Positions 25,451 through 44,869 of a DNA stretch of 64,000 nt are shown piece by piece; position 1 is the first letter of the stretch; each line of letters begins with the position of its first letter. The DNA comes from Psammoneis japonica. Lineage: Eukaryota. The translations under genes and the position numbers were made by a program. The stretch lies in the NCBI GenBank assembly GCA_008632985.1, contig QPGO01000030.1, positions 248,001-312,000 on the forward strand, in the 5' to 3' direction. The notes below the pieces were generated by a model. That model was not told the DNA's origin and did no database searches. It saw nothing but the letters and a program-made list of their open reading frames with translations.

Positions 25451-26539
25451 TGATGTAGACTAGTAAGACGTAAGTCGATGCTTGATCAGTGGTCAACTTC
25501 GGAATTGTGAGAGGTTCAGCGTGATTGCGGTTTCGACGGCTTGCTCGGATGGATTGCTTCGACATACTAGACTTTACGTACATTCTACGGACGAACAAAT
25601 GTATCGTCAAAACCATCCGTCTATCACGAATGAAAAGCGGGCGGGCAGGTTTTGTACACAAAATATTATAGTAAAACAATCATACCATGTTCAACGCTGC
25701 TTGACGCGTGCAACAAACAAAATGTTTCTTACAAGGTACGATAAATATTCAACATTGCATAAGAATATAAAAATGAATTTCATGGGAATTGGGCGGAGGA
25801 ACTTTTTCATGGAACGCAAGCTCGCGCTCGCTCGCTCGCGATCGCGTTGTTTTCACAGGCTCGCTCCATCTTCAACCGTGCGAGGTAGAATGACTTTGTC
25901 GTGTCAGCTGCAGATGAAGGCCAGTGTACAACGGTCCCATTGCACATGAACATTGCGGGGATTGCTTCCGATGATTTGAATTGTGAAGCATGGATCTGGG
26001 CAAGGAGAAAACCAAGGAGTCCAAGAGACTGGCAGCAACAAAATAGCGGGAAAAAAAGAAGCAAAAGAACGCAGGGAACATCAGAAGAAGGAATCATCAC
26101 AAGACCAACGTGCAGCGAGACTGCAATGCAAGGCAGCACAGAAAGTGGATTGGCAGGGCAAGGAGTCAGAGAACCAACACAAGGTGAGGCTGCAATGATG
26201 CAAGGTGGCACCACAGAAAGTGGGTCGGCGGAGCAAGGAGTCGTCGGAGAACCAATGTGAAGAGAGGCTGCAATGCAAGGCAGTGCAGAAAGCAGATTGG
26301 CGTGGCCAGGCCTGCAGGGAGCATTGACCACTTGTCTTTCTTTGCAGGTGTGGGTGTGCGCCATTGTGTGCTGCGTTGCCTGTGTGTGCGCAGAGCCCCT
26401 GCCGGGGATGGCATTGCAGCGGCAGGGTGGCAGGGCCGCCACACTGGTGATGTGGATGACCATTGTGTTTGATGGCTCATGCCATTTTGGGGGCTGCAGC
26501 AAGGTGCACGGACACTCTTTTTTGTCCAATTTGCTGCCA

Positions 26540-26990
26540 AAAAAGCATGTCACACAAACTCACTTGTTGTTTGATGTGTTTTTTTTCCAATGTGACTGTT
26601 TCATGTGCAGCTCACAACAAATTCTCTTCATCCAGCAAAGCTCAATGCATTTTTCAACTTGCCATGCCAGCAATCCTGATTCTGCAGCACTTTCAAGCTC
26701 TTCTGAAAAAAGAGTTCCACGCACCCATTGCAGGGAATTTGATGATTTTTTAAGAAGTCCCCCCACAAACTCCAATGTCCTCAATGATCATTCTGTGAAT
26801 CCAAACAATGCATTTGTGCAAACAACACATGCTGTTCCAAAATCTGAGGGACACACTTTCCAATTCGGGCCGACTGCCCAAGGGACACAAAAAGTCTGCA
26901 ATCACCAACCACTGAGTGGTCAATGAAAAAATTTGCTCTCACAGTGCACTGGGCTCTTGACAAAACTTGTTTTTTGAACTCAGCCACAGC
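26540..26990 (-). pseudogene. Relic reading frame of an unknown protein
   Basis: Frame FIDHSVVGDCRLFVSLGQSARIGK..SQNDH*GHWSLWGDFLKNHQIP..FFRRA*KCCRIRIAGMAS*KMH*ALLDEENLL*AAHE is interrupted only by TGA codons that revert to CGA (Arg). Confidence 0.45.
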
Positions 26991-27539
26991 ACAACAGTTG
27001 TGAATTTTGGAGTGTCATTTGTTGGCTGAGTTGTCGAAATCAGCAAAAATCACAATGAATGAAACATGTGGCCAATTTTTGTGCACACACACCAAGTCAA
27101 TCCAGTTGTTGTTGTGTGTGGGTTTGAGCATGCTGACAATTTGAGCCATCCATTTGTCAGTTGGTGTGCATTTGTTTTTTGGTTTCCAGCGATGTTTGCT
27201 TTGTGCTGTGGCAATGTTCGATGTTTGGCACATGCTCTTGGCTCCTGCTCTTGTTCCAGTCTGTCTTTCTGCTGCCTTTGAACTCTCTGTTCTTCAAGCC
27301 ACTGCCCTGCTGTCTGTCTCATTGTCTCTTGCAGTCTGTCCAACATCTCACTGTTCTTGGCTGTGCTGGCATTGCGCTGTGCTCCAATCTTTGTGTTTCA
27401 AAGAGAGTCAGTTTTTGTGGCAGCTTTTGATGGTGAGACATGAAAGCAAAATCTCTGGCAAAAGACAGCAGAGAAGTTGTCAACTTCTTGGCATGTTTTC
27501 TTTGGCAAGTGTTGCACAATGCTGCTGCTTGCTTCTGCT

Positions 27540-28318
27540 CATGCATGTTGTGCTCTGTTTTGGCTGTGGCAGTGGATTTCTGCTGGCAAACACCAAATCA
27601 TGTCTGCTGTCTGTGCAGCTCTTCCTTGTTGCTCTGTGAACATGTCAGTTTTGCCTCTTGCAGGAGATTGCAGGGGGGTGTTCAGATGCCATGCTTGCAC
27701 AAGTGCTGGCATCAATGGCTTGCTTGTTGGAGAGAAGGAGGAGCATTTCTTGCACACCCAACTCCACAGCCCAGACTGTGTGAGTGGCAGTTGTGAGCAA
27801 GGCTTTGGTGAAAGAAACTCATTCAACATGGAGACTTTGTGCAAAGGTCAGCAGCACACAAACAATTGATGCTGCACTGCAACAATTGCATTGTCAACAA
27901 GATTGGCACTGGAAAGGCTCAATCTTTTGACAACATCTCATGACAGGAAAGCTGAACAAGGCTGCAAGCCTCCAAAAATTGTGCCGTTTGCAGTCAATGA
28001 AGTTCAGCTGCACATCATTTCTGGCTTGCATCTCAGCCAACCCTCCTGTGAGATCTGTTTGTGCTTGAACTTAAGACCAAAATGAAACAGAAGAAGGCTT
28101 GCCCATTCATCACAGCTTGTCATTGCTTCCAACAAAGAGAATCTTGTTTGAAGAATGCCGCCGCAAATTTCTCCATTCTCCTCCTCAAGCCTTTTTGCCA
28201 CTGCCAAACAACTCTGCATTTCTGGCTTCTTGCCCCATGCATTGCTTTTTAAAGTTTTGTTCGCCAGCCAACACTCAGGAATCAAAACTTTGAAAGGGCA
28301 GTTCTGGAGATTGGAAAT
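27540..28318 (-). repeat. Left arm of a ~770-bp inverted duplication (partner ~30034-30800)
   Basis: e.g. ttgtcaacaagattggcactggaaaggctcaatcttttgacaa (27891) is the reverse complement of ~30406-30448; similarity is continuous over the whole arm. Confidence 0.93.
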
Positions 28319-29109
28319 TGTCTGACCTTCAATGAGTGAAAAAGCACAAAAAATGGCACCAGTTTTTTTTTTGTTTGCCACAAGCTGCTTGCTCCCATGC
28401 CACACCTCTGACCTGTTGCCTTTGCCACAGCATTTCTTTGTTGGTGGGTGCAGAGTCCTGTGTGTCATTGGCGCCTTTCTGCAATGTTTTCATTGGTTGT
28501 TTGTGCACTGCTTGGATGCATCCTGTGTTTTTGTGTTGTGTGACAGTGACATGCCTTTGTGCCACATGGAGCCAAGCCAGTTGGCCTGGTGGCAACCATC
28601 GTCTGTGCCATTTTGCAAGCCATTTTCTACAAAAAGACTTTGTTGTGTGTGTGTGCATTTTTGAAGTTTGAGTCAACTTTTAACAAGTCATTTTGTTGGT
28701 CTTCATTGCCTGCGCACCTCACTTGTGAGTTGTCATTTGTTCAGCAGCTGGATGTTCAACATTGTTTGCATCAGATGCAGTGTGTCTGTTTGCAAAGAAG
28801 ATTTGTGTCTCAGTTTTTGTGATTTTGGTCAGCTCTTCTGTTGAGAATGAAACTTTGACATTTGTGCTGGTCTGCACAGTTTGTTTGTGTTTGTGCAGGG
28901 TTGCTGTTGCAGCTGGTCTTTGCAACCGCAGCTGATCCACACATGCACAACAACAACAACCCACCCCCATGGTGCTGGATGTGTGCCTGCAAAGAGCCAG
29001 AGCAGCATCGCCCAGCAGAGACATGAGGGCATTGCAGCTGCAGCACCTCCTCCTCCCCTGCAAGCAGCTGCCCACGCCATTGTGGTTTTGTCCCCAGCAG
29101 GTCAGTGGA

Positions 29110-30050
29110 GACTTGAACTTCCCAACTTCAGAGCAAAGTGACCTCATGGACTGATGGCACCAACCAAGAACCCAACAAGCAACAGTCAGCAGGCTGAGCA
29201 CTGGCAGTGTCTGGCAGACCTCAGGCAACACTCTGAGAACTGTGTGGTCAAGCATTGAGCAGAGTGAAAGGCCAGTGATGTGCACTTGTGGGGCCCTTTT
29301 ACATCCTCCTGCTGGCTAGAAGTGCACTTCAAACTCCCAAATCCAGAGAGAAAGGACCCCATGAAAGTGCCAGCCAACCTCACAACTGCCAGCAGATGGC
29401 ATTGGTGGTCTTTGGTGGGCCCCAAGTGAGACTTCAAGAGCTGTGGTTGGGCGCTGCAAGGTTGATCTCATGGCATTGTGGCCCCATGTCATGTTGTGCC
29501 CAACAGCAGGAGCAAACTTGAACTTCCAAGCTCCAGAGTCCAAGGACCCCATGACAGTGCCAGCCAACCTGAGAACTGCCAGCAGAGGGCATTGGTGGTT
29601 TTTGGTGAGCCCCAGGCAAGACTTTGCCAACTGTGTGGCCAGACATTGCAAGGTTTGTCTTGAAGTGCTGTGGCCCCAAACAATGTCACATTGTGCCCAA
29701 CAGTGGCAGACTTGAACTTCCAAACTCCAAAGTCTGAGGACCCCATGATGCTGGTGCCAACCAACCTGACAGCTGACAGCAGAGGGCATCAGTGGTCTTT
29801 GGTGGGTCCACTTGCAACTTTGAGAACTGTGACTGGGCATTGCAAGGTTGATCTTGCAGTGTTGTGACCCCATGTCACCTTGTTGGCCTTTCCAGCAGAA
29901 GCAGACTTGAGCTTCCAAACTTCAGAGTGCAGGGAAGCCAAGATGGCATCAGCCAACCTGACAACTTCCAGCACAGGGCATTGGCAGCCTTTGGTGCACC
30001 CCAGGGGTTGTCTCCAACAGAAGCCGACTTGAGTTTCCAAACTCCAGAGC
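29110..30050 (+). repeat. About five degenerate ~190-215-bp tandem units (relic of a ~64-aa protein repeat)
   Basis: Units begin acttgaacttcc-like at ~29111, 29326, 29516, 29709, 29905 and 30027 (partial) and share gaccccatg, gccaacct, cagcagagggcat and tgcaaggttgatct. Confidence 0.85.
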
Positions 30051-30800
30051 TGCCCTTTCAAAGTTTGATTGCTGGGTGTTGGCCAGAGAGCAAAACTTTA
30101 AAAAGCAATGCCTTGGGCATGCCAGAAATGCAGAGTTGTTTGGCAGTGGAAAAACAGCTTGAGGAGGAGAAGTGAGAGTGGCACTCTTCAAACAAGTTTC
30201 TCTTTGTTGGAAGCAATGACAAACTGTGATGAATGGGCAAGCCTTCTTCTGTTTCATTCTGATCTTAAGTTCAAGCAAGAATGGATCTTACAGGAGGGTT
30301 GGCTGAAATGCAAGTCAGAAATGATGTGCAGCTGAACTTCACCAATTGCACACCACCCAAGTTTGGAGGCTTGCAGCCTTGTTCAGCTTTCCTGTCATGA
30401 GACATTGTCAAAAGATTGAGCCTTTCCAGTGCCAATCTTGTTGACAATGCATTTGATGCAATGTGGCATCAATTGCCTGTGCTGCTGACCTTTGCACAAA
30501 GTCTCAATGTCAAAGGAGTTTCTGTTGCCAAAGCCTTCGTTGCAACTGTGCCACCCACGCAGTCTTGGCATGGAGTTGGGTGTGCAAAGAATGCTCTCCC
30601 TTCTCTCCAACAAGCAAACCATTGTTGCCAGCACTTGGACAAGCATGGCATCTGAACAACCCTCTGCAATCTCCTGCAAGAGGCAAAACTGGTGCATTCT
30701 TCACAGAGCAACAAGGAAGAGCCACACAGACAGCAGACATGATTTGGTGTTTGCCAGCAAATGTCCACAGCCACAGCCAAAACAGAGTGCAATGTGCAAG
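30034..30800 (+). repeat. Right arm of the inverted duplication
   Basis: Reverse-complement match to 27540-28318; in frame with the last tandem unit (DLSFQTPELPFQSLIAGCWPESKTLKSNA). Confidence 0.93.
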
Positions 30801-31430
30801 CATGGGCTGAAACAAAAACACAAAATCAAATTGCAACCATGTTGGCCAAGATGACTTGGCACCCCAAAACATGTTTGCAGCAGTTTGTTGTCAACCAACA
30901 GCTGCAAAGTGATGCTGAATGAAGCACAAATTGTGGCCCAGGCTGCAATCTGGGCTGACATTGGAGTTTGTCAAATTTTTGATGTGATGATGAGATCAAA
31001 CTAGTTGATGAGCATTCATGGCAACAGGAAGCATGAGTGGTGGCAGGGATTGAATGATGACACATGGCAGCTGTGGGGGCTGCTCAACATTGTAAATCAA
31101 CTGGGCTCTGGAGTGCAAATTGACATTGGATGGAAGGAAAGGACTCATGTCTGCAGTGGTTTTGTGTCTGCCAAAAGGGTTGGGGGGGGGGGGGTCAACG
31201 AGAAGTTCATTTTGAAAAGAGAGTCCTCTTTTCATTGTTGTCAGTCATGTGACAAGGACATGATGGAGTGTGACAGGGGTCCACTGTTGTCACACAAACA
31301 GTGGATCAGCAGCTGAGTTGTGTGGTGCTCAATGCAACAAAGAGCAGACAAATGCAGCAGAAACACATGAAATGCATGCAACAGGCAATTGAGCCAAAGC
31401 TCTTCTAAACAAATGACTCAGCTGTGAACA

Positions 31431-33383
31431 TGTTGGAACATTGGGTCAGAGGCAGTTTTTGTTGTGTGGACAGACAGAGCTGCAGTGTAAGATGCACTGA
31501 CAATGGTGGACAACATGGCAAGTTTGCACTCACAACTTGGATTGAGTTGCAGGTCTTGCACTTGCTTTTCAGCTTCTGCACCCAGTTGACATTGCAATGG
31601 CAGCTGGTGACATCAGTTGATGTGTTTGCAAACTGCACAATGAGTCAGGAGCAAGACTGAACATGCACCAGTCAGCAGGCTGCAAAACTCCAACACACAA
31701 GCCAAAAAGTCATGCGCAACACTCAAAGGAGTGTTGTTGCTGTTCAAGGACTGGGAAGTTGAGAAGAATCCACAATGTGAGTGCTGGGAAGTCAAGAGGA
31801 ATCCACAGACAAATGGGCCACCCAGGAGCGGTCAATGAGAATCCAAATGAAAGAGCCACAAGGTTGACAGGAGTCCAAAGGTGCACCTTGTGTCAGCAGA
31901 TTGCAGCAAACAAGCTGGCTGGAGGAGGGCAAAGAAACAATCTTTGGATGGCCTCCCTGTCAAAGAAGCTGTCAAGGGTTAATGAAAGAGGGCATGGCAA
32001 GGTTGCATTGGGGTTGGCAAGACAGAGTGTGCATCTGTTGGCAAGCTGTAAAACTCCAACGCAAGTCCCAGAAAAGATGGGCAAAGATGCAGCTGAGTGC
32101 GGAAGCACAAAAGAGTTGAAAGAGTGGGTGCACGATGCCATGACGAGTTAGGAAGAGCAGATGGATGCACAGAAACTGTGAAAAAGATTGGTGAGTGTGT
32201 TGGAAGAGTGTTTGGGCTGGACATGCAGGTGTTGGTGTCTCTGGCCTGAGGCAGCACAACATGCCAGGAGAGCTGGTTTGTTCATTGCTGGGAGACACCC
32301 CACATCAGAGAAGGATGAGGTGATCTGGGGCAAGAAGCACAACCACCATGTGGAGCAGAGTTCAATGTGCAAGACACAGAAGGCAAAGGTGTTCAATGCA
32401 ATTGTGTGGGGCAATTTGCAAAGGCCATTCATCACAAGCTTGAAGAAGGAGTGGCAGAGTTTGCAAGAATTGCACAGGAGTGAGACATGATGACAACACT
32501 GCTGAGTGTTCTCAAGTCAATGTTGTTTGACACAAATGAGAAGACAAACTTGCATGTCCAGGTGGTCAAGGCTTGGAAGCAATTGGTGCTCATTTGTCAA
32601 GACAAAGGAGAAGTGCTTCAAGAATGTCACAATTGTTTCATGAGCATGGTTGAAATGGTGGAAACACATCCTGTGTGGCAGGTCATTCCAGAAGAGGTTG
32701 CCAAGAAAGAAAACGGGTTCAGCAAGGGTGCTGATGACACCCAGAGTGAAGAGAAAACAAGTCATTGGCAGTGATGCCAATGGAAGGTGCCAACAATTGT
32801 TGGCATGTTTTGAAAGACCTGGATCAGCAGCTCACATTGGGGGTTGACTCATGCCCCAATTCAGACAAGGAGGCGCTGCAGGTGTTGGACACTTGTGGGA
32901 CCAACAAGAAACCTGAGGGCATGAGCTTTGTGCAGAATGACAAGAAGAAGGTTCCATGCTGGAATTGCAACAAAGTCAGAGATGTGAGGAAAGATTGTCC
33001 TGACACCAGTGATCATTCATTGGTTGAGCCAGATGATGTGGGCCATGGGAGTCAACAAAAAAAGGCCATGCAGTGTTGGGTGGGGTGGTTTCTCTTGTGC
33101 TTGATGTGCATGAGGTCAATCAATTGACAACTTGTGGGAAGGAGTGTGTTGGAACATCAGGGTTGGAGGTGGTTTTCATCACATGGATGGAAAGAGTTGC
33201 AGTGTGAGATGCATTGATGATTGTGGACAATGTGGCAAGTTTGCGCTCATCATTTGGATTGAGCTGCACAGGTCTTGTGCTCACTTTTGGCTTCTGCACC
33301 CAGTTGACACTGCAGCAGTTGATGTGTTTGCAGACCACATGGTGAGTCAGGAGATGGCAAGACTGGGTGCACACCGGTTGGCA
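31431..33383 (+). mobile_element. Decayed gag-only (non-autonomous) LTR retroelement
   Basis: Direct repeats 31431-31677 and 33147-33383 (both TGTTGGAACAT...GCA). Purine tract gggaaggag before the right repeat. Internal Gag relic QDKGEVLQECHNCFMSMVEMVE, LGVDSCP..ALQVLDTC and knuckle CWNCNKVRDVRKDCP. No pol and no recognisable TSD. Confidence 0.8.
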
Positions 33384-34399
33384 AGCCATGAATCCTCAAC
33401 AGAGCACCTTCAAAATTTCTGCCAATGCCTGTGCTCAGAACTCACAAAAAAAACATTAGACAGTGGTGCAAATGCCACATTCATTGAATGCAGTGGAGGC
33501 AGTCTGGTGCCCAAATCTCTTTACAACAAGATTGTCTTGGTGCCATGGTTGACAAGCATGCAAAGAGACTCGTGCACTGGGCCAATCTTTTCAGAGGAAC
33601 AATGGCGTGTCTGTTGTTGTTGCACTTTTTGCACACAGTGAGCACAAGACATGCATGGGTGAATGTGTCGTGGAACTTTGAAAAAGTGGGTGCATGAATT
33701 TTCTGCCCACCCACCCAAAATCAACTGCTGTCTGAGTGTGCAGCATGCCTTCTGCTGGCTGGCACTTTTCCAATGACAAGTGCACAAACTCAAAAACCAT
33801 CAACAGCAAAAATGGCACTCATCTGTGCAATGCTCATTTCAAAGACAATCATTTCACCACCGCTGACAGCCCCCATCCAAAATTGTGGCATTTTGGCAAG
33901 AAAGCTGAGTGTGTTGTGAGTTGCAGTTGTGTGTCTCATGGTGCAGCGGCATGTTTTTGGTGGTTTTGGTGTTGTTGCCTCTCCCTCTTGTCTTGCTCAC
34001 AGTCATCTGTCTCATCATGTTCTGGAGCAAGGTGGCAACATTCTACAATTCGAGATGTTGGTGCTTCACAAGTGAGTTGGATTGCTTCATGGACTGTGGG
34101 GGCACACTCAGTGACCAGCACTGCCAGTCATGATTTGGCTGGGGAGGATGCAGAGGAACTGCTTCATGTCAATTGTGCATGACAGCCAGTGTTGGAACAT
34201 CAAGTTGAGAACCCAGATGCTTGGAGAGCTGTGCCATTGTCAATGTCCCCAAGATTTGTTTTGTGTTTTGTTCTCACTCTTTTGAGTGAATCATCTGATT
34301 TGCATGAATTGCATCATGGTGTCAGCAGGCACCCATTTCACATTGCAAGTTTGAAGTTTTGTTGAGAATTTCTGGCAAAACTGCAGCTGCCTGAGCAAC

Positions 34400-35290
34400 C
34401 AGGGCAAGTGCAACAAGCAGCAGAGGAAGCCTTGGGATTCTCTTTTGGCAACATTGGCTTGCTGGCTCAACAGCTGGACTTGGAACTCTTCAACAAAACA
34501 ATCTGGGTTGGCCCACATGTGACAACTTGGACACTGACATTGTGCATCTGATTCATTTGTTTGTGCACCCTCACAGTTGAGTGTTGACCAACCTTGCACT
34601 CATGAGCACCCTCATTGTTGGGTGTGTTGGAGCCACATTCATGTCATTTGTGTGCAACGGCTGGACTTGGAAATTGACAAAAACACCTGGATTGGCTTTT
34701 GTGCAACAATTTTGAGCCCTTGTTGTGTGTTGAATTATGTGGTCACATGTCCATGTGGTTGAGTGTGATCAATCTTGCACTCATCTGTGCTGTTGGGTTT
34801 GCTGGGTGCACCCCTGCATTGTTTGTGCACAACGGCCACCAGACTTGGAAATTGACAAAAACACCTTCATTGGCTTTCATGCGCTGATTTTGGGCCATGG
34901 TCATTTGCACAATTTGTTTGGTCACCATGCATCCTCAGAGTTGAGTGTTGTGGTCAATCTTGCATGCCCATGTTGTTGGGCATGATGTTGGATTCACCAT
35001 TGATGGCCTCTGCTCAGAGCCAACAAAACCTGGCTTGGCTTTTTGTGCAGCATTTTGGACTTGCCGCTGTGTTTGGTGGTTTGATTCATTGGGCTGTGTG
35101 TCCTTGCAATTGAGTGTGATCAATCTCACCCTCACCCTCATTGGTGGGCTGGCCAGAACCGCTTTTGTGTCAATTTTGCATGACGGCTCTGCTTGGAACT
35201 CAACAATGAAGCCTGGAGTGGCTCTTGTGCAACAATTTTGGACTGCAATTTGTGTGTTTGGTTCATTTGGTCATGCATCCTTGCAGTTGA
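34400..35290 (-). repeat. About five degenerate ~170-185-bp tandem units (relic of a ~58-60-aa protein repeat)
   Basis: Plus-strand unit marker (g/a)ttgagtgt at ~34576, 34758, 34940 and 35110, with gttgag at ~35285; shared gacttggaaattgacaaaaacacct. The minus frame reads LNCKDA*PNEPN..PGFIVEFQ..RVRLITLNCKDTQPNESN. Confidence 0.8.
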
Positions 35291-36399
35291 GCAAGACTTC
35301 AAGAGATTGGTTCAGTGTGCACTTTTGCTCCATTGCTCCACTGGACAACTTTAATTTGTGGCAGTGCCAAAGTGCTGTGTTTGCCACAGTGTTTGCAGCT
35401 TGTTGTCAATCTTGCTGTCTTTTTGGGAGTTTTTGTAATCGGCAAGGTTTGGATGAGCAGCAACACTCAAAAGAGTCTTTGTGGCACCTGCAGTTTGAAT
35501 GTGTTGTTGTGCACAACACAAACCTGCACTCAGATGGCTGGCGCTGTTCAGCTTGTTGAGATGTGGAAAAAGAATTTGAAGTTGACATTGTTGTTGGCAC
35601 AATTCATGGAATCCACATCCTCAATGCTGGCCAAAGGTGCAAATGAACTGCTGCGTCCATGAATGGCAAGCCAGGTGGTGAGCAGCAACACTCCATCCAG
35701 GACATTGTGGTGTCAGTGGCTCAGAACATGTGCACAACCAACATGCACCCACTTTCAAATGTTGCAGATTGGCGTGGAAAACTTGAAATGTCAGAATCAA
35801 GTGACGAGACCTGGAGCTGCAAAGCAATCATGAGCCATGTGCAGTGGGCAGGAATGCAAGGAGAGCAGTGCAGACAGACAAGGGGCTCAAGTTCATGCAT
35901 CACATTCAGCCTTGCACTCCATGGCCTGGCTGTCAAAAGGGCCAAGAAGAAGATTGCAATCTGAGTTTCTTGTCACGCAACAAACCAAATGTGTGGTGCA
36001 CACCCTGCACATCTTGGGAACTGCCAGCTGCAGCCAAAAGGGTGTGCTGGCATCTCAAGTCATTTCAAATGAGGAAATGCTCAAACCAAACACCTGACAA
36101 CAAAAGCCAGCATGCCTGTGCATGCCATGCATGTGATCCCAGTGCCTTGTCACAGCATGTGCACCTGGTTGGCAAGGATTGTGTCTGGGGCCATTCTCAG
36201 GGGTGCAAACCATGCTCCTCTTGGTGATTTCACAAGGCAATCTCTTGACAAACAAACACAGAGGTGCCTCTGCCAGCTTTGGCAAAATGGCTCACCTTTG
36301 CTCAAATGCCTTTCATGTCAGGATCACCAACAAGAAATGCCACAACAGCTTTGGGGCGACCCCAGGGTGGTGGTGTGCGAATGACCTTTTTGAGGTGTT

Positions 36400-37215
36400 T
36401 CTCAAGAGATCCAAAGCACCAACATCACACCATTGGCCCGTTGGCAGTGACAAAATTGCAAGCTGGGTGGGTGTTTGAGGCACTGTGGCCATGACCCAGA
36501 GAAGAGGAAAATGGGAACGGCGGCTTCTCTCCCCTCTGTTGTTTTCATGAACTCTTGCCTTTTGAGCTCAACCGCCATGAAAGAAACCAGTTGACACAAA
36601 ACTGCAGCAGACTCTCTCCACAGTGGCAGCATGAGCTGCTTTGCAAAAAGAGGAGCTCCACTCAGCAAAGTGGACCTGAGTTCAATGTTGATCATGGGAT
36701 CCTGTCTGTGCCACATGCGACGGCTTGGGGCCAAAGCTTGAAATGAGACAGCTTCTTGTTTGAAAACCAAGAAAGAGTTGCGCCAGAATGGCAGCACCTC
36801 TTTGAAAAGAAGATTCAACCAGCTGTCTCTTCTTGACCTGGCATGGATTCTTGACCCACATCAAAATGCTTGCAGTTTTTTGAGCTGAGTTTTCTCCACA
36901 TGGAGGAGCAGGCACACACTCGTTTGCATGGGAGGAGAGCTGCTCACAAATCACAGCACTGGCAGAGCCTTGCTTTGGAAATGGAGGTGCTGCGCAGCAC
37001 CTGTCAAGAAGGTGAGAGTGCCCTCACATTGTAAAACTGTGCACTCATTTTTGTGGTGCAGATCTCTCAAACTTAACTTCTTTGGACAAGCCAGCACCAA
37101 GCAACTCTCTGGCAGCAGTCGTTGGGCATTTCCACCTGCACTTTGGGCGGGGTCAGTCATTTCAAGTGTCACTCCAAACCTCTGTGCTCATGGGGTCACT
37201 GCACTGGGTGCATCA
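36400..37215 (-). pseudogene. Relic gene of unknown function at the right edge of the hypermutated domain
   Basis: Protein-like ORF fragments 36951-37172 and 36402-36818, downstream of a CT-rich leader and a CpG-intact promoter-like segment (37320-37456). Confidence 0.4.
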
Positions 37216-37461
37216 TCTGGAACGCGACCAGCTGAAGATCTCAGAACAGAAAGATCTTGCCTTTCGTTCATTTCACTCTCTAACTCTACTTTCTTCACGC
37301 CACGAACACAGGCAGCAGGCTAAACTAAAGGATTTCAGATTGTTCGCCAAGTGAGTCTAATGATCTGAAATGACGATGCTGTGACGTGTTCGTGACGTCG
37401 ACCGACCTTCAACTCGCACGCGCACGCGACACGCGACGCACTCACCGCATCCACCAAGTAG

Positions 37462-37715
37462 TGTGAGCTAACAGTTTAATTAGAACTAAGTCGACAACTA
37501 GCCTTGTGATGAACACAGATAAACTGGTTGTGATTGCTTTGAATTTTGAAAAGGTGAGAAGACGAACGTCTCAACAAGTGTTTTCCAATAAGTGTTTGAG
37601 ATGTCTTCAACAATTTGGGGGCCGTACGTGTGAACAATTTGGGGCCATAGAAATCGAACATTGACAATCGAATGTCGTAGATGTCGCGAGGCATAAATAG
37701 ACGTCAACAGTCACA
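37462..37715 (-). repeat. 3' LTR
   Basis: 245/254 identical to 43383-43636 by manual alignment; contains an internal repeat aacaatttgggg(g)cc twice. Confidence 0.97.
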
Positions 37716-37726
37716 CTCCCTCATTC
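37716..37726 (-). other. Polypurine tract
   Basis: Minus strand GAATGAGGGAG immediately precedes the TG of the 3' LTR. Confidence 0.8.
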
Positions 37727-37737
37727 GATGAGATGGG

Positions 37738-40700
37738 TCACCAGCCGAAAAGCAAACGACGGAGCTTATAGAAAACCGCCTTAGGTAGCTGTTTCGTGAA
37801 GATGTCGGCTTGTTGATCGGCAGCACGAATGGGTTGAACTTTGATGCGGCCGTTGGCGACTTCGTCGCGAAAGTGGTGAAGTATGACGTTGAAGTGTCGA
37901 GTGCGTGGGCGCATTTTGGGTACGCGAGCGATCTCCAGTGCGGCGGAGTTATCCTCGAACATCGTGCAATGCATGACAGGTGTCGTTTTCACATTAATGT
38001 TTCTCTCCTTGAGTTCTTCCAACAGGCACATGATAGATTTCACATGTCTGGCAGCTGTAGAGAGAGCAATGTATTCAGATTCTGCACTGCTGAGAGCAAA
38101 CATTGTTTGCAGCTTGGAAGCCCAATATAGGGGCACGTTTGCAAATTTGATAGCAAAACCAGAGCGAGAGCGAGCTGTATCAGGATGGTTTGCTGCGATG
38201 GCCTTGTCCCAGTTGCCACAAAAATCAGCATCAACATAGCAATCAAGGCCATATATGTCGTCTGGTTTGATGATGTACCCTTCATTTCGGGTGGCCAGTA
38301 GATATCTTCCAATGTGTTTGATGGCAGCGCCGTGAGAAGCTTTGGGATTCGACGTGAAGCGGGCGCATTGGTGAGCAGCACATGCAATGTCACCTCTTGT
38401 TGATTTTTCTAAGAAGTTCAGTTTGCCAACAACAGAGCGGTAGTTCCATGATTCCTGAAAAGGTGCACCATCCGGATCGGGTCCGACAAGTTTTGTAGTG
38501 CTTGCTGGGAGCTCGTGTGTTTTGGTGTTGTTTGAATTCGAGTTGTTGCGAGTGCCAATAAGACCAAGGTCTTGGAGAATACTGTCAATAAGTTGTGGTT
38601 GGTATAGTTTGAAAGAGCCGTCCGGCAACGTTTCGATTTTGACGCCGAGGTAGTCACCAATGTCGCCTTCATCTGATATACGTGTACGTGTACCGAGGTC
38701 CTTGATACATTGATCAATCTTAGCATCCGAAGGATCGAACATAAGACCGTCGTCGGTATAAACTAGGAATGTGGTTGTTCCACGGTAGAAAACACATTCG
38801 TCGAATGAAGACTGTGTAAAGCCAATGTCGAGTAGTACGTTTCGTAAGAATATAAACCACGTTCGTCCAGCGTCTTTTCCTCCATATATATTTTTCAATA
38901 CTTCCAAACAATGCTTGTTACGATCCAGATTAGGAAAGTTGATGCCTCTTGGTAGTTCCATAAAGGTGGGCCTTGGAATGTCAGCGTGTGGATATGCCAA
39001 TACAAAGTCAACTTGTCTTGATTTCCATTTGAAGAGGATGGAGAGAATAAGGAATAGACGGATGATAGTCCAAGAAAGTGTTGGAGCATAGGTTTCCTCG
39101 TAATGTTTTCCTTTCTTCATTTTGTGTCCTCCAAGTTGAGTCGACTTTTCCACTTGTATACTTTGCGTGTGCCGATACGTCGCTTGCGCTTCATAGACCA
39201 TATTGCAGGAAGAATAGTCTCACCCTGTGGTACATCAGCCTTTTCAATAACTCGCCAATGTTTCCTATCGGTATGGTCTTGGACTTCTTTAACCATAGCT
39301 TTCTTGAATTCGTGAGCGTCTGGTTCGCGAAGAGCCTCGTGCATGTAGAGAGTGTCCGGGTCATTGGAAGCTTTCATGCTGTACAAAATGGGGTCTTCTA
39401 GTTGATTTCGGTCGTTGTCGATGAGATACATGTCCTGGGCAATAGCTTCATAAGTGGTTGCAGCGTATGAGACAATATTTTGTTCACGTTGAAGTTGTGA
39501 CTCAATGGCCCTTTGGGTCATTTGGACTTTACGACCAGAGCGAGTTGTGACCGTTGGTGTTGGCGATCCTGAGTCGGCTGCAGAAGTTTCAGAAGTCTCG
39601 TTTGTTGTTGATGGACCTCCCTCATTTGTTGGAGTAGCGGTTTCTGTTTGATCCGAGTGGCTTAGAGATGATCCTGTATCATTTGTATTGTCCATATCAG
39701 TTGGTGGTAAGTCCGATACATCTGGAGCAGGAGCTGTAGTTTGGCTTTTGTCTTGACTCATCAGTTGTTTTTGGGAGAAAATCTGACGCGTGCTTGTTTC
39801 TTGTAATGACACTTTTCTTGCCATACACTTCGAGGGATGACGGATGAGCCTTTGACAGTCTCAAATAGGTCGTCAAATTTGACATGGTATTGTGGAGAGG
39901 CAAGTCCTGTTTCAAGGTTAAGGATAAGTGCCACAGATCTGGCGTGTCTGGGTGAAGGTCCGAGATAAATGCCCACTCGTGCTCTTGTTTCCCACTTTGG
40001 TAGATGAGAGCCTGACTGTAACTTGTTCTTTAATACATATACAGGACATCCAAAAGAGTGGAAGTGTCGTAGTTTTGGTTTGACTTGCACGTTTGCGAAG
40101 AGCTCTATTGGAGATTCGTTTCTAGGAGATCTGGCGGTATGATTGTGCACGTTGTTGGCATAGCGTATAGCATATGGCCATAAGTGGTGATCAATAGCGT
40201 TTGGCCAGCGATGGTGAGCGTGTATAAGTTGTGTTCTCGCTTGCTCTTGTAGGTCTCTAATGCGTTTTTCTGCTCTGCCGTTTTGAAAGTGTGCATTGAC
40301 TCCGCAATAGGTTATATGCTGCCCTTGTTGACGTACCGATTTGATGAATGCGTTGTCAGCGAATCGTCCATTGTCGGCGTGATAGTGTTGGATACGGACT
40401 CCGAGGGAGCGGGCAAATGCTTCATAAGCAACTTTGGCGTGTAGCGTTTCTTCTGAGGTGATCGATTTTTGTAGGTATACGAATGACAGGTCGCTATAGT
40501 GGTCGACGAAGACCGTGACGTAGCGATATCGTTGACGTGTTGGTATGCCCTTGAGTTGAGCTATTAGTCCAGGCGTGGTGGCGTCGAGTTGGTCGACAGA
40601 TACTACTTGTCCGGCTGCAGTGGCTTTGAAAATTTTGGTTTGTTGTGTGCCCTTGGTTCGCCATGGTACCTTGGTGGCTTTACCATAGCGGCATGCAGCG

Positions 40701-41920
40701 CAGACGGGTACGCGGCAATCAGCGAGGCGCTTGGGTAGGTCTCCTGAGTTAACCATATGTTTAATGCGTGAGAATGGCAAGTGTCCGAGTCGGTAGTGCC
40801 AAAGTAGTAGTTCGTTGGTAGGAGTCAGGTCGTCTGGGAATGTTTGGTCCTCGACGACTGGAACGCCAAAGTTCATATCCGAGAAGTCCACCGTGTTGGG
40901 TGTCGTGGCTTCTGGTGTAGCCGTAGTTGAGTTTGTAGGCGTTGTAGCAGCTGTTGAGTTGCTGTTATCGATGGCCTCGTTGAACGTGTGACGTGCAGTT
41001 GGTGCAGTGGTCTGTTCTTCAGGTAAGTCTTCAGGTTCGGGTTCGATGATGTGTACATTTTGAAATACTTTAGGTTCTCGTGCTTGCGAGTTGTACTCAC
41101 GCTCAAATTCGTTGTGCTTGTCATAGGATGGAGCGGAGCGGAAGACTGGTACGTTTGCCTTGGAGAGCGGCATAGTGCGAGAGTATTTCTCGTCTTGCCA
41201 TCGAAGTATCGTTCGATCGTGAAGTGTCTTTTCATAAGTACCATCCGGATTGTTGGAAATTGGTGCGAGTACTTGTGCCAAGTGTTGTGGCGAGAGAAGA
41301 CGAATTGGAAGCGTAGGTACGTAGTACGTGTTCGGTATGATAAATTCATGAAGTAAGCCATCGTCGTCTTCAACCTTCCATTTAACTTTGCCCTTGAAGG
41401 TCGATTTGGCGTTACCACTGGCAGCTTCCACGACAACGTTGACCTTTGTTGGTGGTTCAATGAAGTCGTCTTTGTTATTCGTCATGCAGTAGGAGGCATG
41501 GTTATCAACTCCGATGTTGAACGAGTCTGTGTCGAAGTTGTGATCGCGGTGACCGTCGCAGTTACAGCCATGGGAGCAGGATGCGGTATGGCATGAGGCG
41601 TGCTGCGACTTGAGACCCATTAGTCGGTAAGTGGCTTTGTTGCACATAATGAAGTGTCGGCGTTTTCGTCGGATATAACGCATGTTGGTCTTGAGATAGT
41701 TTGGTTTCCTTGGTGGTCTACGACTTCTCAGGAGATATTCCGTCATTCGTCGTAACCAGGAACGCAGGAGTGGAAAGGAGTAGAGCCAGTTCAGCAGTTC
41801 CACCATAGCGCAGTAGATCATGTTGAGTGCGCAGAAGAATGGTAGGAAGACTGAGCATACACCGCAGAACAGCCACAACCGTAAGTACAACTTGACTCGT
41901 AATGCAGTGTTGGCGAACAC
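37738..41920 (-). CDS. pol: Copia Pol (protease, integrase, RT, RNase H), split by frameshifts near 39790 and 39125
   Basis: IGVDNHASYCM (PR); LWHYRLGH..C..C, VSVDQL, HADNGRF, QNGRAEKRIR (IN); ETYAP, RQVDFVLAY, NIYGGKDAGRTW, LVYTDD (RT); YVDADF, SSAESEY, FEDN, ADIFTK (RNase H). Confidence 0.95.
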
Positions 41921-43264
41921 TCATTCTTGATCTGATACGTCTTGTACGCCAACATTTGCCATGGAGGCAGTTAGGTCTGATTCGGCCTTGTCCTTGACGG
42001 TGGAGCAGTCCTTGGTAAGGTGAGCGGACCAATACTCGTGGTTCTTGCACCATTTGAATGTTTTACCCTCAACCGTCTTGGTGTGCGGTTGTCCGTCTTT
42101 AGGAGCTGCGTTGCGCCAGGCATGTTTTCCGTAGAAGAGGCATTTCTTGCATCCGTTGGATAGGATCTTGAACCTCTGGCGCCTGTTGTTATTGTTGGAA
42201 CCCGATTCTTTCGTTTTGTTGCCCTTGGTGGAGCTCTGAGTGGTTTTGTTGCTGTTGCCAGTAGAGCGTGGAGCGTTGCGAGCTTTGGTGTCACGAAGGG
42301 TCTTGACTTCGGCTTGTAGCGCTACGATGGTCTCTTGCTCTTTGGTTGGTGCCATCCACTTTTCAGATTCGATAAGGATCTTGTACTTGTTTTCAGCCTT
42401 GAGCATGAGAGCATGTACATCGAGATCTGATCCATCTTCATAGTCGCTCTTGTACTTCTTGATGGACTCGATGAATTCTGAGTCGGTGCACGTGAGGTAA
42501 GCCTTGAACACGTTGTTCAGCAGATCGGAACTAGTGTGGCCGCGAGCAGCAAGTTTCTTTTCCAAAGATTTGACGTGGTTGTTGAAAGTCTTGATGTTTT
42601 GACCGTCAATTGTAGCCATGTAAGCGTCTAGATTGCCCATTTGGTCACGGATTACCGAGACAGTAGCCCTTGTGTCGACTTGAGCCTTTGATAGAAGTGC
42701 CTTGAGGTAGGCTACACCGCATTCTTCGTCTCCAACAGTGTACTCAGCCTTTTCTTCCGTTGCCATGATGGTCTTGGAGGGCTCGTCTAGGGTGCTCTGG
42801 AGACATACGAGGAGTTGGTAGTTATTCTGCGCGTTGCGTTGCGCCAGATTGAGGTATGTAGCGGATACCGTGCGAATCTGCTCAGCTGAGATTTGTCCAT
42901 ACTCGGTGAGCATGTCCTTGTTCTCGGCTGGCAAAGCAGGAACTGCGCCATGGTTGATGTTGATCGTGAGAATGTCGTTCCAACCATTGGTTTTAGAACG
43001 GACCGCGAGTTCTTCTAGGAAGACTGGGATGTTGGGCGATTCAAGACTGAACTGGGTGTCCAACGGCTTGGTCGCGTCTGCGAAAACGAGCGCGTCACCT
43101 TTCTTGGTGTAGTCCAAAACGTCTGCACGGGCCAGCGCTGGTGACTTGGCGAAAGGTCCTGGAGCAGCTGCTGCTGGTGGTGCAGGCATGTTGTTCACAA
43201 TCGGCTGGACAGCCGCCTGGACAGCTTGTGCGATGGCGTTAGCGAGCGCGTCAGCGTCCGCCAT
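41921..43264 (-). CDS. gag: Copia Gag
   Basis: Intact 447-aa ORF inside the 5' LTR, with a C-terminal WCKNHEYWSAHLTKDC Cys/His motif and a TGA stop in frame with pol. Confidence 0.9.
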   Translation of the reverse strand: MADADALANAIAQAVQAAVQPIVNNMPAPPAAAAPGPFAKSPALARADVLDYTKKGDALVFADATKPLDTQFSLESPNIPVFLEELAVRSKTNGWNDILTININHGAVPALPAENKDMLTEYGQISAEQIRTVSATYLNLAQRNAQNNYQLLVCLQSTLDEPSKTIMATEEKAEYTVGDEECGVAYLKALLSKAQVDTRATVSVIRDQMGNLDAYMATIDGQNIKTFNNHVKSLEKKLAARGHTSSDLLNNVFKAYLTCTDSEFIESIKKYKSDYEDGSDLDVHALMLKAENKYKILIESEKWMAPTKEQETIVALQAEVKTLRDTKARNAPRSTGNSNKTTQSSTKGNKTKESGSNNNNRRQRFKILSNGCKKCLFYGKHAWRNAAPKDGQPHTKTVEGKTFKWCKNHEYWSAHLTKDCSTVKDKAESDLTASMANVGVQDVSDQE

Positions 43265-43369
43265 AATGAGGTCTTGAAGTTCCTGAGCACGTCTTTGTGC
43301 TCCTCTTGTTAAACGGCGTATCTTGTTGGTTCGGAGAGAACGTTGCTGGTTCGATTAAGAACACTTTAT

Positions 43370-43382
43370 CGCAGAGGAAGCG
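43370..43382 (-). other. Putative non-canonical primer-binding site
   Basis: Abuts the 5' LTR and lacks TGG; the plus strand CGCAGAGGAAGCG(TG) resembles the D-arm of eukaryotic initiator tRNA-Met. Confidence 0.55.
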
Positions 43383-43636
43383 TGTGAGCTAATAGTTTAA
43401 TTAGAACTAAGTCGACAACTAGCCTTGTGATGAACACAGATAAACTAATTGTGATTACTTTGAATTTTGAAAAGGTGAGAAGACGAACGTCTCAATAAGT
43501 GTTTTCCAATAAGTGTTTGAGATGTCTTCAACAATTTGGGGGCCGTACGTGTAAACAATTTGGGGCCATAGAAATCGAATATTGATAATCGAATGTCGTA
43601 GATGTCGCGAGGCATAAATAGACGTCAATAGTCACA
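43383..43636 (-). repeat. 5' LTR
   Basis: TG...CA termini, followed by the AGTAG TSD. Confidence 0.97.
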
Positions 43637-43738
43637 AGTAGTTATTAGAAATTCGGTGAAAGCCAGCCATGACGGCCGGCAGAAAGCTGTTGTAAAATTA
43701 GGCACGTTGCGTACGACAATCCGTAACCAGGCGTCACA

Positions 43739-44869
43739 ATGTTGTGTTTAAATATTCACCATTGTGGTAGAAGGGCTTTACTTACGGCTAGAAACAGACG
43801 TTTATCGACTGTAACAGTGACAAAGACCAAGGCGTCCTCACGACTGCAGGAACTTCGAGACAAACTGGACGCAGAGGATGCGAGCTTACACGAGTTTGCG
43901 GGAGATAAATCGGTCGTAAAGAGAAGAAAGGCAGCCCCCAGATCGGCCAAGATTTTGCCCAAGCCCAAATGGTTAAAGGCTCAACCTGCTGTGTCAGAGC
44001 AATACAAAGAACTACGGTCCACAGTGCGAGAACTGGGACTTGCCACGGTTTGCGAGGAAGCCAAATGTCCCAACATTGGAGAGTGTTGGAGTGGAAACCA
44101 AGATGGAGAAGGTGCGACAGCTACAATTATGATCATGGGAGACACCTGTACACGTGGATGTTCCTTTTGCGCTGTAAAGACGAGTCGAGCTCCACCTCCG
44201 CTCGACCCCGAGGAGCCTGAAAAGGTGGCTTCTGCCATTGCAAAATGGGGCTTGGATTACGTTGTATTGACCAGTGTTGATCGAGATGATTTGCCTGATC
44301 AGGGATCTTTGCATTTTCGAAGCGTTGTGCAGAAGTTAAAAGAAAAGAATCCCAAGCTGTTGGTAGAAGCTCTCACACCAGACTTCCGGGGCGATCTAGA
44401 TCTCGTAAAGGCTGTAGCCACGTCGGGATTAGACGTCTATGCACACAATATCGAAACCGTTGAGCGCCTCCAAAGGCGTGTCCGTGATCGACGAGCAGGA
44501 TACCAACAATCGCTAAAGGTGTTGGAAGGTGTCAAAACCTTTAACGATACAGCTCTTACAAAAACGTCCATCATGTTGGGACTGGGCGAAAACGATCAAG
44601 ACATTCGAGACACGTTGGCAGATTTACGTGGTGTGGACGTAGACGTGGTGACCTTTGGTCAGTATCTTCAGCCGTCTCGTAGACACTTGCCAGTAAAGGA
44701 GTACGTGACTCCAGAGAAGTATGCCGAGTGGCAATCCGAGGCGGAAGGGATGGGATTCCGGTATGTTGCTAGTGGGCCACTGGTGAGAAGCAGTTACAAG
44801 GCAGGCGAATTCTTCCTGACGAATCTGTTACGAGAACGAGAACAGGAGCAGGTGGCGGATGCAGTTTGA
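43739..44869 (+). CDS. LIAS: Lipoyl synthase (mitochondrial, radical SAM)
   Basis: [47 protein letters not shown]. Confidence 0.97.

What the first reader, a model, noticed from the sequence alone, without database searches (positions are those of the whole stretch)
37738..38400. Conserved RT/RNase H residues near the 3' LTR are altered by TA->TG
Seen: DIACAAHQCARF with TGT at 38380-38382 where copia RTs have DIAYAV (TAT), and IRAADQQADIFTK with CGT GCT (base 37824) where the motif is typically I.T..Q.ADIFTK (CGT ACT). IMCLL and PVMHCTMFEDN are also compatible. Gag and integrase motifs at the far end look intact. Inference: the mutator spreads into the element from the adjacent domain and damages Pol, which fixes the polarity.
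Basis: partly seen in the sequence, partly recalled or inferred. Interest (0 to 1): 0.75.

Follow-up and report, generated by a model that had tools for sequence, protein, structure and literature searches.

The report
Retrotransposon end hit by TA-to-CA/TG mutation
A young copia-type jumping gene in a diatom-like genome sits beside an 11-kb stretch stripped of TA and CG steps, and only the end of the element facing that stretch shows the same TA-to-CA/TG changes, which suggests an unknown local mutation process that is still active.

Summary
Codon TGT (38380-38382) gives Cys where 35 of 50 relatives have Tyr and 10 Phe. Codon GCT (37822-37824) gives Ala where 43 of 50 have Thr and 7 Ser.

The element is a 6.2-kb Ty1/copia retrotransposon on the minus strand (37462-43636). 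It has 254-bp LTRs and a perfect 5-bp target duplication.

Four lines support TA->CA/TG changes in its domain-facing ~1.3 kb:
- The two LTRs differ at 9 sites. At all 9 the near LTR has G/C and the far one A/T, and 8 lie in a TpA. No CpG differs.
- At 37824, every laid contig from the public runs reads T (Thr), so the window's C is derived.
- All 7 TA-loss-type replacements found among 92 deviations from relatives lie at 37824-38772 (p about 0.0004).
- Two rare Tyr->Cys changes occur here; none of 50 relatives has more than one.

Caveats:
- The TA-free domain ends at 37280, 180 bp before the LTR.
- Catalytic residues are intact, so damage to Pol is unproven.
- Only one internal site could be compared with other genomic copies.
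- An assembly artefact is not excluded.

No known mutational system makes A:T->G:C changes at TpA in DNA. The closest analogue is fungal RIP leakage, which works in the opposite direction.

The parts
37462..37715 (-). 3' LTR of the copia element, 254 bp, TG..CA ends. This is the LTR nearest the TA-free domain. It carries G/C at all 9 sites where the sister LTR has A/T: 37472, 37526, 37527, 37536, 37575, 37632, 37659, 37665, 37708.
   Evidence: TpA count is 12 against 20, CpG 11 against 11, CA+TG 41 against 33. 8 of the 9 differences lie in a TpA of the sister LTR (chance P=2.9e-6).
43383..43636 (-). 5' LTR, on the side far from the domain. It serves as the internal reference for the 3' LTR.
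37457..37461 (.). Target-site duplication AGTAG. The second copy is at 43637-43641. Its TpA is intact on both sides.
   Evidence: Read.
37738..39219 (-). Reverse transcriptase and RNase H reading frame (493 codons; the first ~28 are out of frame). Pfam RVT_2.
   Evidence: RVT_2, E=7.6e-24; relatives up to 66% identical.
37822..37824 (-). Ala466 codon GCT. Relatives have Thr or Ser here. The other genomic copies read T at 37824 on the + strand, which gives ACT (Thr).
   Evidence: X1 348.7 of 348.7 depth in 2 contigs; X2 16.2 of 16.2.
38380..38382 (-). Cys280 codon TGT in DIACAA. Relatives: Y 35, F 10, C 1 of 50.
   Evidence: Whether the other genomic copies share the Cys could not be seen.
37822..38772 (-). 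Cluster of 7 amino-acid replacements that a single TpA->TpG/CpA change explains: T466A, Y398C, S324G, K313E, Y280C, I264V, I150T.
39761..41920 (-). Protease-integrase frame. No TA-type replacement was found here.
   Evidence: contig at 40863-41452 with 0 differences.
41921..43354 (-). Gag frame (477 codons, no Pfam match).
   Evidence: contig at 41752-43079 with 0 differences at depth 256, against about 55 for single-copy DNA.
37281..37461 (.). Spacer between the purged domain and the LTR. It holds 6 TpA and 20 CpG. Before the insertion it was contiguous with the region upstream of the lipoyl synthase gene.
25930..37280 (.). Domain almost free of TpA and CpG. There are 28 TpA in 11.3 kb, TpA o/e is 0.01-0.06, and CA/TG o/e is about 1.9. 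The core is high-copy repeat; the last ~2 kb is near single-copy depth.

Best explanation
A recently inserted Ty1/copia retrotransposon lies 180 bp from the edge of an 11-kb island in which nearly every TpA and CpG has been turned into CpA/TpG. About five near-identical copies of the element exist in the genome.

After integration, the same TpA-directed A:T->G:C transition process acted at partial strength on the end of the element that faces the island. The strength was roughly 25-40% of TpA steps. The affected stretch is the 3' LTR plus about 1.05 kb of RNase H/RT coding sequence, about 1.3 kb in all.

Shown:
- the one-sided, TpA-specific divergence between the LTRs;
- the derived state of the window at 37824;
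- the clustering of TA-loss-type replacements;
- the absence of any CpG loss in the element.

Inferred:
- The process acts on DNA in place. The two LTRs of one insertion start identical, so RNA editing before integration cannot make them differ.
- It is tied to the chromatin state of the neighbouring island and has spread over the new insertion.
- Its chemistry is deamination of adenine in 5'-TA-3' on either strand (A->I, read as G). The slower CpG->TpG/CpA decay trails behind it.

The replaced residues are conserved but not catalytic, so they record the direction of mutation. They do not prove that the enzyme is inactivated.
For: 1. LTR pair. There are 9 differences in 254 positions, and all 9 have G/C in the domain-side LTR (sign test 0.004). 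8 of 9 lie inside a TpA of the far LTR (P=2.9e-6). 5 are T->C and 4 are A->G on the + strand, so both strands are hit. No other kind of difference exists, so the insertion is young.

2.. At 37824 the window has C, while every laid contig of X1 (depth 348.7 of 348.7) and X2 (16.2 of 16.2) has T. That is TA in the other copies and CA here.

3.. Of 92 deviations from the plurality residue of 50 relatives, 7 fit TpA->TpG/CpA, and all 7 lie at 37824-38772. This is 7 of 32 near against 0 of 60 far, Fisher p=0.0004. The rank test gives p 0.0002-0.03 in six settings. The reverse type occurs twice, both at 41056-41173.

4.. The query has 2 rare Tyr->Cys/His replacements; no relative has more than 1 (0 in 46 of 50, 1 in 4 of 50).

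5.. The synonymous CTA/TTA/GTA to CTG/TTG/GTG ratio is 7:11 near against 55:25 far (p=0.03).

6. Context:
- In the island, TpA loss reaches 600-900 bp further out than CpG loss at both edges. This matches TA-only changes in the element.
- The island's last ~2 kb has near single-copy depth (59-110 against about 55) yet is fully TA-free. Purging therefore already extends beyond the repeats.
- The arms of a 750-bp inverted repeat inside the island differ by CA-against-TG at 13 of 25 adjacent double mismatches. This is the footprint of independent resolution of TA or CG steps.
Against: - The fully purged zone ends at 37280. The 180-bp spacer before the LTR still has 6 TpA and 20 CpG, so there is no continuous gradient.
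- Only one internal site (37824) is shown to be specific to this copy. 38381 and the other five candidate sites were not among the 40 of 1739 differences that read laying printed, so they may be family-wide.
- No contig in X1 or X2 carries the window's allele at 37824. An error in the assembled window would look the same.
- The second site where all contigs disagree with the window (38821, A->G on the + strand) is not in a TpA. Nor is one of the 9 LTR differences (37527).
- One of 50 relatives has Cys at column 280. Four of the seven columns are only 42-66% conserved.
- Reference-free tests are weak. NNT|A against NNC|A codon junctions show no difference (19:49 against 64:179, p=0.88). Tyr against Cys+His gives p=0.84. 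TpA counts per 250 bp in the near kilobase (7-8) are matched by some far bins (3-9).
- This is one locus with no replicate. X1-X3 are one sample and one study, possibly the source of the assembly.
Confidence: 0.55

Rival explanations
1. Consensus or base-calling artefact. The TpA->CpA/TpG differences in the near LTR and at 37824 are errors of the assembled window, for example systematic miscalls at modified bases in long reads. They are not mutations in the DNA.
For: -: no laid contig of X1 or X2 holds the window's C at 37824 or its G at 38821.
- The window differs from the contigs by about 1% in the single-copy island flank (10 letters and 3 gaps in 1015 at 36451-37462).
- It differs from the contigs by 1-base indels in short G/C runs at 39130, 39744 and 39773. 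This is typical of long-read consensus errors.
Against: - Random errors would not be 9 of 9 one-directional, 8 of 9 in TpA, and confined to one LTR.
- Strand-specific miscalls at a palindromic TA should also yield some CG calls. None is seen, and CpG is 11 and 11.
- Contigs drop rare variants by construction (note), so absence of the allele is weak evidence.
- The island's own TA-free state is held by the contigs with few differences: 3 in 811 at 33625-34434.
Confidence: 0.15
2. The coding replacements are old, family-wide or lineage-specific substitutions. Only the LTR differences and 37824 are private to this copy. The clustering in RNase H reflects the history of the family's founder or relaxed constraint there, not spill-over at this locus.
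For: - None of the six other candidate sites appears among the printed differences from the other copies.
- Column 280 tolerates F, V, Q and C in 15 of 50 relatives.
- Four of the seven columns are below 70% conserved.
Against: - 37824, the one site that could be tested, is private to this copy.
- The clustering is specific to the TA-loss type: 7 of 32 against 0 of 60. It survives use of only the 15 closest or only the 35 most distant relatives.
- The same one-sidedness is seen independently in the LTRs.
Confidence: 0.13
3. Ectopic gene conversion. The 3' ~1.3 kb of this copy was overwritten from a paralogous copy that sits inside a purged island elsewhere and had been partly mutated there.
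For: - The family has about 5 copies: depth 255-308 against about 55 for single-copy DNA.
- The affected stretch looks like a block of about 1.3 kb with a sharp end, not a decay.
Against: - No contig with the window's allele at 37824 was laid. A donor copy would double that allele's depth.
- This explanation does not account for why the converted end is the one that faces the island.
- It still needs the same TpA-directed process to act at the donor.
Confidence: 0.09
4. RIP-like C->T at CpA acted on the far (5') LTR. The near LTR keeps the original sequence, and the coding deviations are chance.
For: Every LTR difference can also be read as CpA/TpG->TpA, the classical RIP context (RIP context from the abstract of PMC2621366 in the listing). 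Diatoms encode DNMT4 enzymes related to fungal RID, of unknown function (PMC9998398, passages).
Against: - At 37824 the TpA state is ancestral by two criteria.
- RIP mutates both repeat copies, but here only one LTR differs in one direction.
- The neighbouring island shows loss, not gain, of TpA.
- The far part of the element is identical to the other copies.
Confidence: 0.05

Closest known systems
Fungal repeat-induced point mutation (RIP) and its leakage into adjacent DNA
   Same: Both are context-specific transition hypermutation of DNA confined to a domain, in which repeats are degraded. In both, the mutations can run over into neighbouring sequence. [quoted passage not shown]
   Different: - The chemistry and direction are opposite. 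RIP turns CpA into TpA (C:G->T:A) and raises TpA. Here TpA is turned into CpA/TpG (A:T->G:C) and TpA vanishes.
- RIP hits both copies of a repeat. Here only the LTR facing the island is changed.
- The host is not a fungus. The nearest named relatives of the element are from diatoms.
A-to-I editing by adenosine deaminases: ADAR hyper-editing of retroelement RNA, and ADAT2/3-type editing with U at position -1
   Same: The base change is A->G and the 5' neighbour is T/U. [quoted passage not shown]
   Different: Those systems act on RNA. Here the two LTRs of one insertion differ, which needs a change after integration. Both strands are hit: 5 T->C and 4 A->G on the + strand. No such enzyme is known to act on chromosomal DNA; that statement is recalled, not from a call.
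CoDi-type Ty1/copia retrotransposons of diatoms
   Same: The element itself is an ordinary member of this kind. It has gag, protease, integrase, RT and RNase H in that order, short LTRs and a 5-bp target duplication. Its closest named relatives are from Nitzschia inconspicua and Fragilaria crotonensis. CoDi elements are described in PMC2806351 (listing, term search).
   Different: In PMC2806351, a term search found no occurrence of 'RIP', 'hypermut' or 'dinucleotide'. I did not test which CoDi group this element belongs to.
CpG decay of methylated transposons
   Same: It accounts for the CpG->TpG/CpA half of the island's signature.
   Different: It does not touch TpA. It is also absent from the element: CpG is 11 and 11 in the LTRs.

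Membership tests
Ty1/copia LTR retrotransposon | Two direct LTRs ending TG..CA, flanked by a short target-site duplication | tested here: met
   254-bp LTRs at 37462-37715 and 43383-43636, 96% identical, TGTGAG...GTCACA, with AGTAG on both sides.
Ty1/copia LTR retrotransposon | Integrase lies upstream of reverse transcriptase, and the RT is of the RVT_2 type | tested here: met
   Pfam Pol_BBD, gag_pre-integrs and SH3_retrovirus in the 41920-39761 frame; RVT_2 in the 39219-37738 frame. 166 of 178 and 160 of 182 conserved columns are shared with full-length relatives.
Ty1/copia LTR retrotransposon | One uninterrupted pol reading frame (autonomous copy) | tested here: not met
   Three frames with shifts near 39773/39744 and 39130. 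Other copies differ by 1-base indels there. These may be errors of the assembly.
Fungal RIP | C:G->T:A transitions, mainly CpA->TpA, which raise TpA | tested here: not met
   The direction at 37824 is TpA->CpA. TpA is lost in the near LTR (12 against 20) and in the island (o/e 0.01-0.06).
Fungal RIP | Both members of a duplicated sequence are mutated | tested here: not met
   All 9 LTR differences go one way.
Fungal RIP | Dependence on a RID-type DNMT and on the sexual cycle | not testable with these tools
   No genome is held. Diatom DNMT4 enzymes are related to RID, with function unknown (PMC9998398 passages).
RNA-level A-to-I hyper-editing fixed by retrotransposition | Changes arise before integration, so both LTRs carry them and only the sense strand shows A->G | tested here: not met
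   The LTRs differ from each other, and the + strand shows both T->C (5) and A->G (4).
APOBEC-type G->A hypermutation of retroelements | G->A on the plus strand of the element (C->U on minus-strand cDNA) | tested here: not met
   All private changes are A:T->G:C.
Methylated-CpG decay | Loss of CpG to TpG/CpA | tested here: not met
   For the element: CpG is 11 and 11 in the LTRs. It is met in the island core.

The most novel reading that the evidence does not exclude
This diatom-like alga has a genome-defence or heterochromatin-linked mutator that deaminates adenine in 5'-TA-3' of chromosomal DNA, working alongside 5mCpG decay. It strips both self-complementary pyrimidine-purine steps from silenced repeats. 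The mutator is active today. It spread over a newly inserted copia element within the time in which not a single ordinary substitution accumulated in the LTRs. This would be a functional mirror image of fungal RIP, with adenine rather than cytosine as the target.
Probability: 0.3. Interest if true: 0.92.

Novelty: categorically new. Interest (0 to 1): 0.78.

Why it matters
The neighbouring island shows an end state: no TpA and no CpG. An end state alone cannot tell the direction or the timing of the process, or whether it acts on DNA.

The copia insertion supplies all three. Its two LTRs were identical at integration, its protein has deep relatives, and sister copies exist in the same genome. 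Read together, these say three things. TpA is the substrate and CpA/TpG the product. The change happened in the chromosome after integration. Its rate at TpA exceeds the background by a wide margin: 8 of 20 TpA changed, against 1 change at any other position of the LTR, and that one directly adjoins a changed TpA.

If this is confirmed, it points to an unknown TpA-directed A:T->G:C mutagenesis of DNA in a eukaryote. It also gives a ready assay locus for finding the enzyme.

Tried and rejected
- Whole-genome search for other copies: no genome is held.
- Other copies inside the window: none. Self-BLAST found only the element and its LTRs.
- Same-species copies in the protein collections: none. 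The best identity was 64% ('longer'), 66% ('near') and 60% (representatives). DNA-level polarisation against close relatives was therefore impossible.
- Metagenome scan with a 20-base word of the RNase H region: one locus, L001, with no BLAST similarity to the window. It is a chance match.
- Read laying: only 40 of 1739 substitutions were printed, so the state of the other copies at 38381, 38430 and the 9 LTR sites is unknown.
- No RNA holder was listed.
- X3 laid nothing.
- Earlier notes of this scan: none for this genome or this sequence.
- Identity of the island: the 59 ORFs of 90 aa or more gave no Pfam match at or below E=0.01; ten of them, also scanned up to E=1, gave only sub-threshold hits, the best at E=0.017. 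tblastn with 6 copia polyproteins gave 18 hits, all inside the element and none in the island.
- Reference-free composition tests gave little. Codon-junction NNT|A against NNC|A gave p=0.88, and Tyr against Cys+His gave p=0.84. TpA counts per bin overlap between the near and far parts.
- Paper searches for a TpA->CpA/TpG purge or for hypermutation of diatom retrotransposons found nothing relevant. These were full-text term searches of the held library only.
- Considered and rejected, for the reasons in the membership table: RNA editing before integration, APOBEC-type hypermutation, CpG decay, classical RIP.
Full report
**What is there**

The finding lies in the last reading frame of a 6.2-kb Ty1/copia LTR retrotransposon on the minus strand.
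- The LTRs are 254 bp long (37462-37715 and 43383-43636) and end TG..CA. A perfect 5-bp duplication, AGTAG, flanks them.
- The frames read gag (43354-41921), protease-integrase (41920-39761), a bridging frame (39860-39117) and RT-RNase H (39219-37738).
- Pfam finds Pol_BBD, gag_pre-integrs and SH3_retrovirus, and then RVT_2.
- Relatives in the large protein collections reach only 64-66% identity. The named ones are from the diatoms Nitzschia inconspicua and Fragilaria crotonensis.
- The window is otherwise gene-rich, ordinary eukaryotic DNA. It holds genes for topoisomerase II, a Brr2-type helicase, TRIP13, Nup54 and U1-70K. The element sits about 100 bp upstream of a lipoyl synthase gene.

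**The observation**

- Among 50 full-length relatives (alignment A2), the Cys280 column holds Y 35, F 10, V 3, Q 1 and C 1.
- The Ala466 column holds T 43 and S 7.
- Val264 (I in 47 of 50) and Ala282 (V 42, T 8) are further deviations nearby.
- The motifs IMCLL and PVMHCTMFEDN are weak. Their columns are variable.
- The invariant acidic columns that I take, from recalled knowledge of copia Pol, to be the RT YxDD motif and the RNase H D-E-D-D residues are all kept: D156, D157, D330, E380, D423 and D472.

**The neighbour**

- From about 25930 to 37280 the window is almost free of TpA (28 in 11.3 kb) and of CpG. CA/TG stands at about 1.9 times expectation, and the G+C content is unchanged.
- Contigs of a public run hold this state with few differences, for example 3 in 811 at 33625-34434. 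They also show that most of the island is a high-copy repeat family (summed depth up to thousands, against about 55 for single-copy DNA). Its last ~2 kb is near single-copy depth. The runs are one sample and one study, perhaps the source of the assembly, so this is not independent replication.
- Inside the island, the arms of a 750-bp inverted repeat differ by CA against TG at 13 of 25 adjacent double mismatches. This fits independent resolution of TA or CG steps.
- TpA loss reaches 600-900 bp further out than CpG loss at both edges.
- TpA density is normal again from 37281, which is 180 bp before the LTR.

**Does the process reach the element? Evidence for**

1. The LTRs, identical at integration, differ at 9 of 254 positions.
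   - At all 9 the island-side LTR has G/C and the far LTR has A/T.
   - 8 of the 9 lie in a TpA of the far LTR (P=2.9e-6; sign test 0.004).
   - 5 are T->C and 4 are A->G on the + strand.
   - TpA is 12 against 20, while CpG is 11 and 11.
2. At 37824 the window has C. Every laid contig of X1 (348.7 of 348.7 depth) and of X2 (16.2 of 16.2) has T. The other copies therefore encode the conserved Thr, and the window's state is derived: TpA->CpA.
3. Over the protease-integrase-RT-RNase H alignment I listed the 92 places where the element departs from the plurality residue of the relatives.
   - Seven of them can be explained by one TpA->TpG/CpA change. All seven lie at 37824-38772.
   - This is 7 of 32 near against 0 of 60 far, Fisher p=0.0004.
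   - A rank test without any chosen cut gives p 0.0002-0.03 in six settings of thresholds and relative sets.
   - The reverse type occurs twice, both far away.
4. The element has two rare Tyr->Cys/His replacements in this frame. 46 of 50 relatives have none and 4 have one.
5. Synonymous CTA/TTA/GTA against CTG/TTG/GTG codons stand at 7:11 near and 55:25 far (p=0.03).

**Evidence against**

- Other reference-free tests are flat: codon junctions give p=0.88 and Tyr against Cys+His gives p=0.84. TpA counts per bin overlap between the near and far parts.
- Only 37824 and 38821 could be compared with the other copies, because 40 of 1739 differences were printed. 38821 is an A->G outside TpA.
- No contig carries the window's alleles at these two sites.
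- The window also differs from the contigs by 1-base indels in short G/C runs at 39130, 39744 and 39773. An assembly artefact is therefore a live rival.
- Deviations at conserved columns are no more frequent in RT-RNase H (8 of 168) than in protease-integrase (7 of 173). 'Damage to Pol' is not shown.

**Mechanism**

- The LTR asymmetry requires a change in chromosomal DNA after integration. That excludes RNA editing fixed by retrotransposition.
- The direction excludes RIP-type and APOBEC-type cytosine deamination.
- The untouched CpGs exclude methyl-CpG decay.
- What remains is a TpA-directed A:T->G:C process acting on both strands. It is complete in the island and partial, about 25-40% of TpA, over the adjoining 1.3 kb of a very young insertion.
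- My mechanistic guess is deamination of adenine in 5'-TA-3'. It is inferred only from the context preference of ADAT/TadA-type deaminases (PMC11156358, abstract) and is untested.
- The behavioural analogue is RIP overrunning into neighbouring DNA (PMC3105345, passage). Diatoms have DNMT4 enzymes related to fungal RID, of unknown function (PMC9998398, passages).
- Full-text searches found no description of such a TpA purge. The CoDi paper does not use the terms RIP, hypermut or dinucleotide.

**Verdict**

Polarity and one-sidedness are supported. A continuous spread from 37462 and damage to Pol are not.
- The decisive test is comparison with all the other genomic copies and with anchored raw reads. 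It could not be run here.

Noticed in passing
window 25930-37280: An 11.3-kb island with 28 TpA in all, and CpG nearly absent in its core (26510-36350). CA/TG is about 1.9 times expectation and G+C is unchanged. It is set among ordinary housekeeping genes. Most of it is a high-copy repeat family in the public run.
   Followed up: partly
window 27542-28297 and 30053-30798; 29099-30049: Inside the island there is a 750-bp inverted repeat, about 88% alike, around an array of 190-195-bp repeats. 13 of the 25 adjacent double mismatches between the arms are CA against TG.
   Followed up: partly
window 25770-26510 and 36357-37280: At both island edges TpA is already gone while CpG is still present at reduced density. 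The TpA-free zone is 600-900 bp wider than the CpG-free core on each side.
   Followed up: partly
window 35124-37115: The last ~2 kb of the island has summed contig depth of 59-110, against about 55 for single-copy DNA, yet it is fully TpA-free. Purging is therefore not limited to repeated DNA.
   Followed up: no
window 39130, 39744, 39773: This copy differs from most or half of the laid contig depth by 1-base indels in short G/C runs. These coincide with its three reading-frame changes. They may be real or may be assembly errors.
   Followed up: partly
window 38370-38434 and 42018-42100: Contigs of run X2 skip 65 and 83 bases of the element while being continuous themselves. In X2 the element has about single-copy depth (17-26), unlike X1, where it is about 5 times single-copy depth. 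This is unexplained.
   Followed up: no
window 43637-43740: The element is inserted about 100 bp upstream of the start of a lipoyl synthase gene (LIAS_N and Radical_SAM domains). It separates that gene from the CpG-rich 180-bp spacer at 37281-37461, which was once its upstream region.
   Followed up: no
window 26001-35500: CA and TG counts alternate in blocks, for example 32:12 at 26001-26250 and 22:42 at 27501-27750. This hints that the conversion of TpA/CpG is strand-biased within each repeat unit.
   Followed up: no
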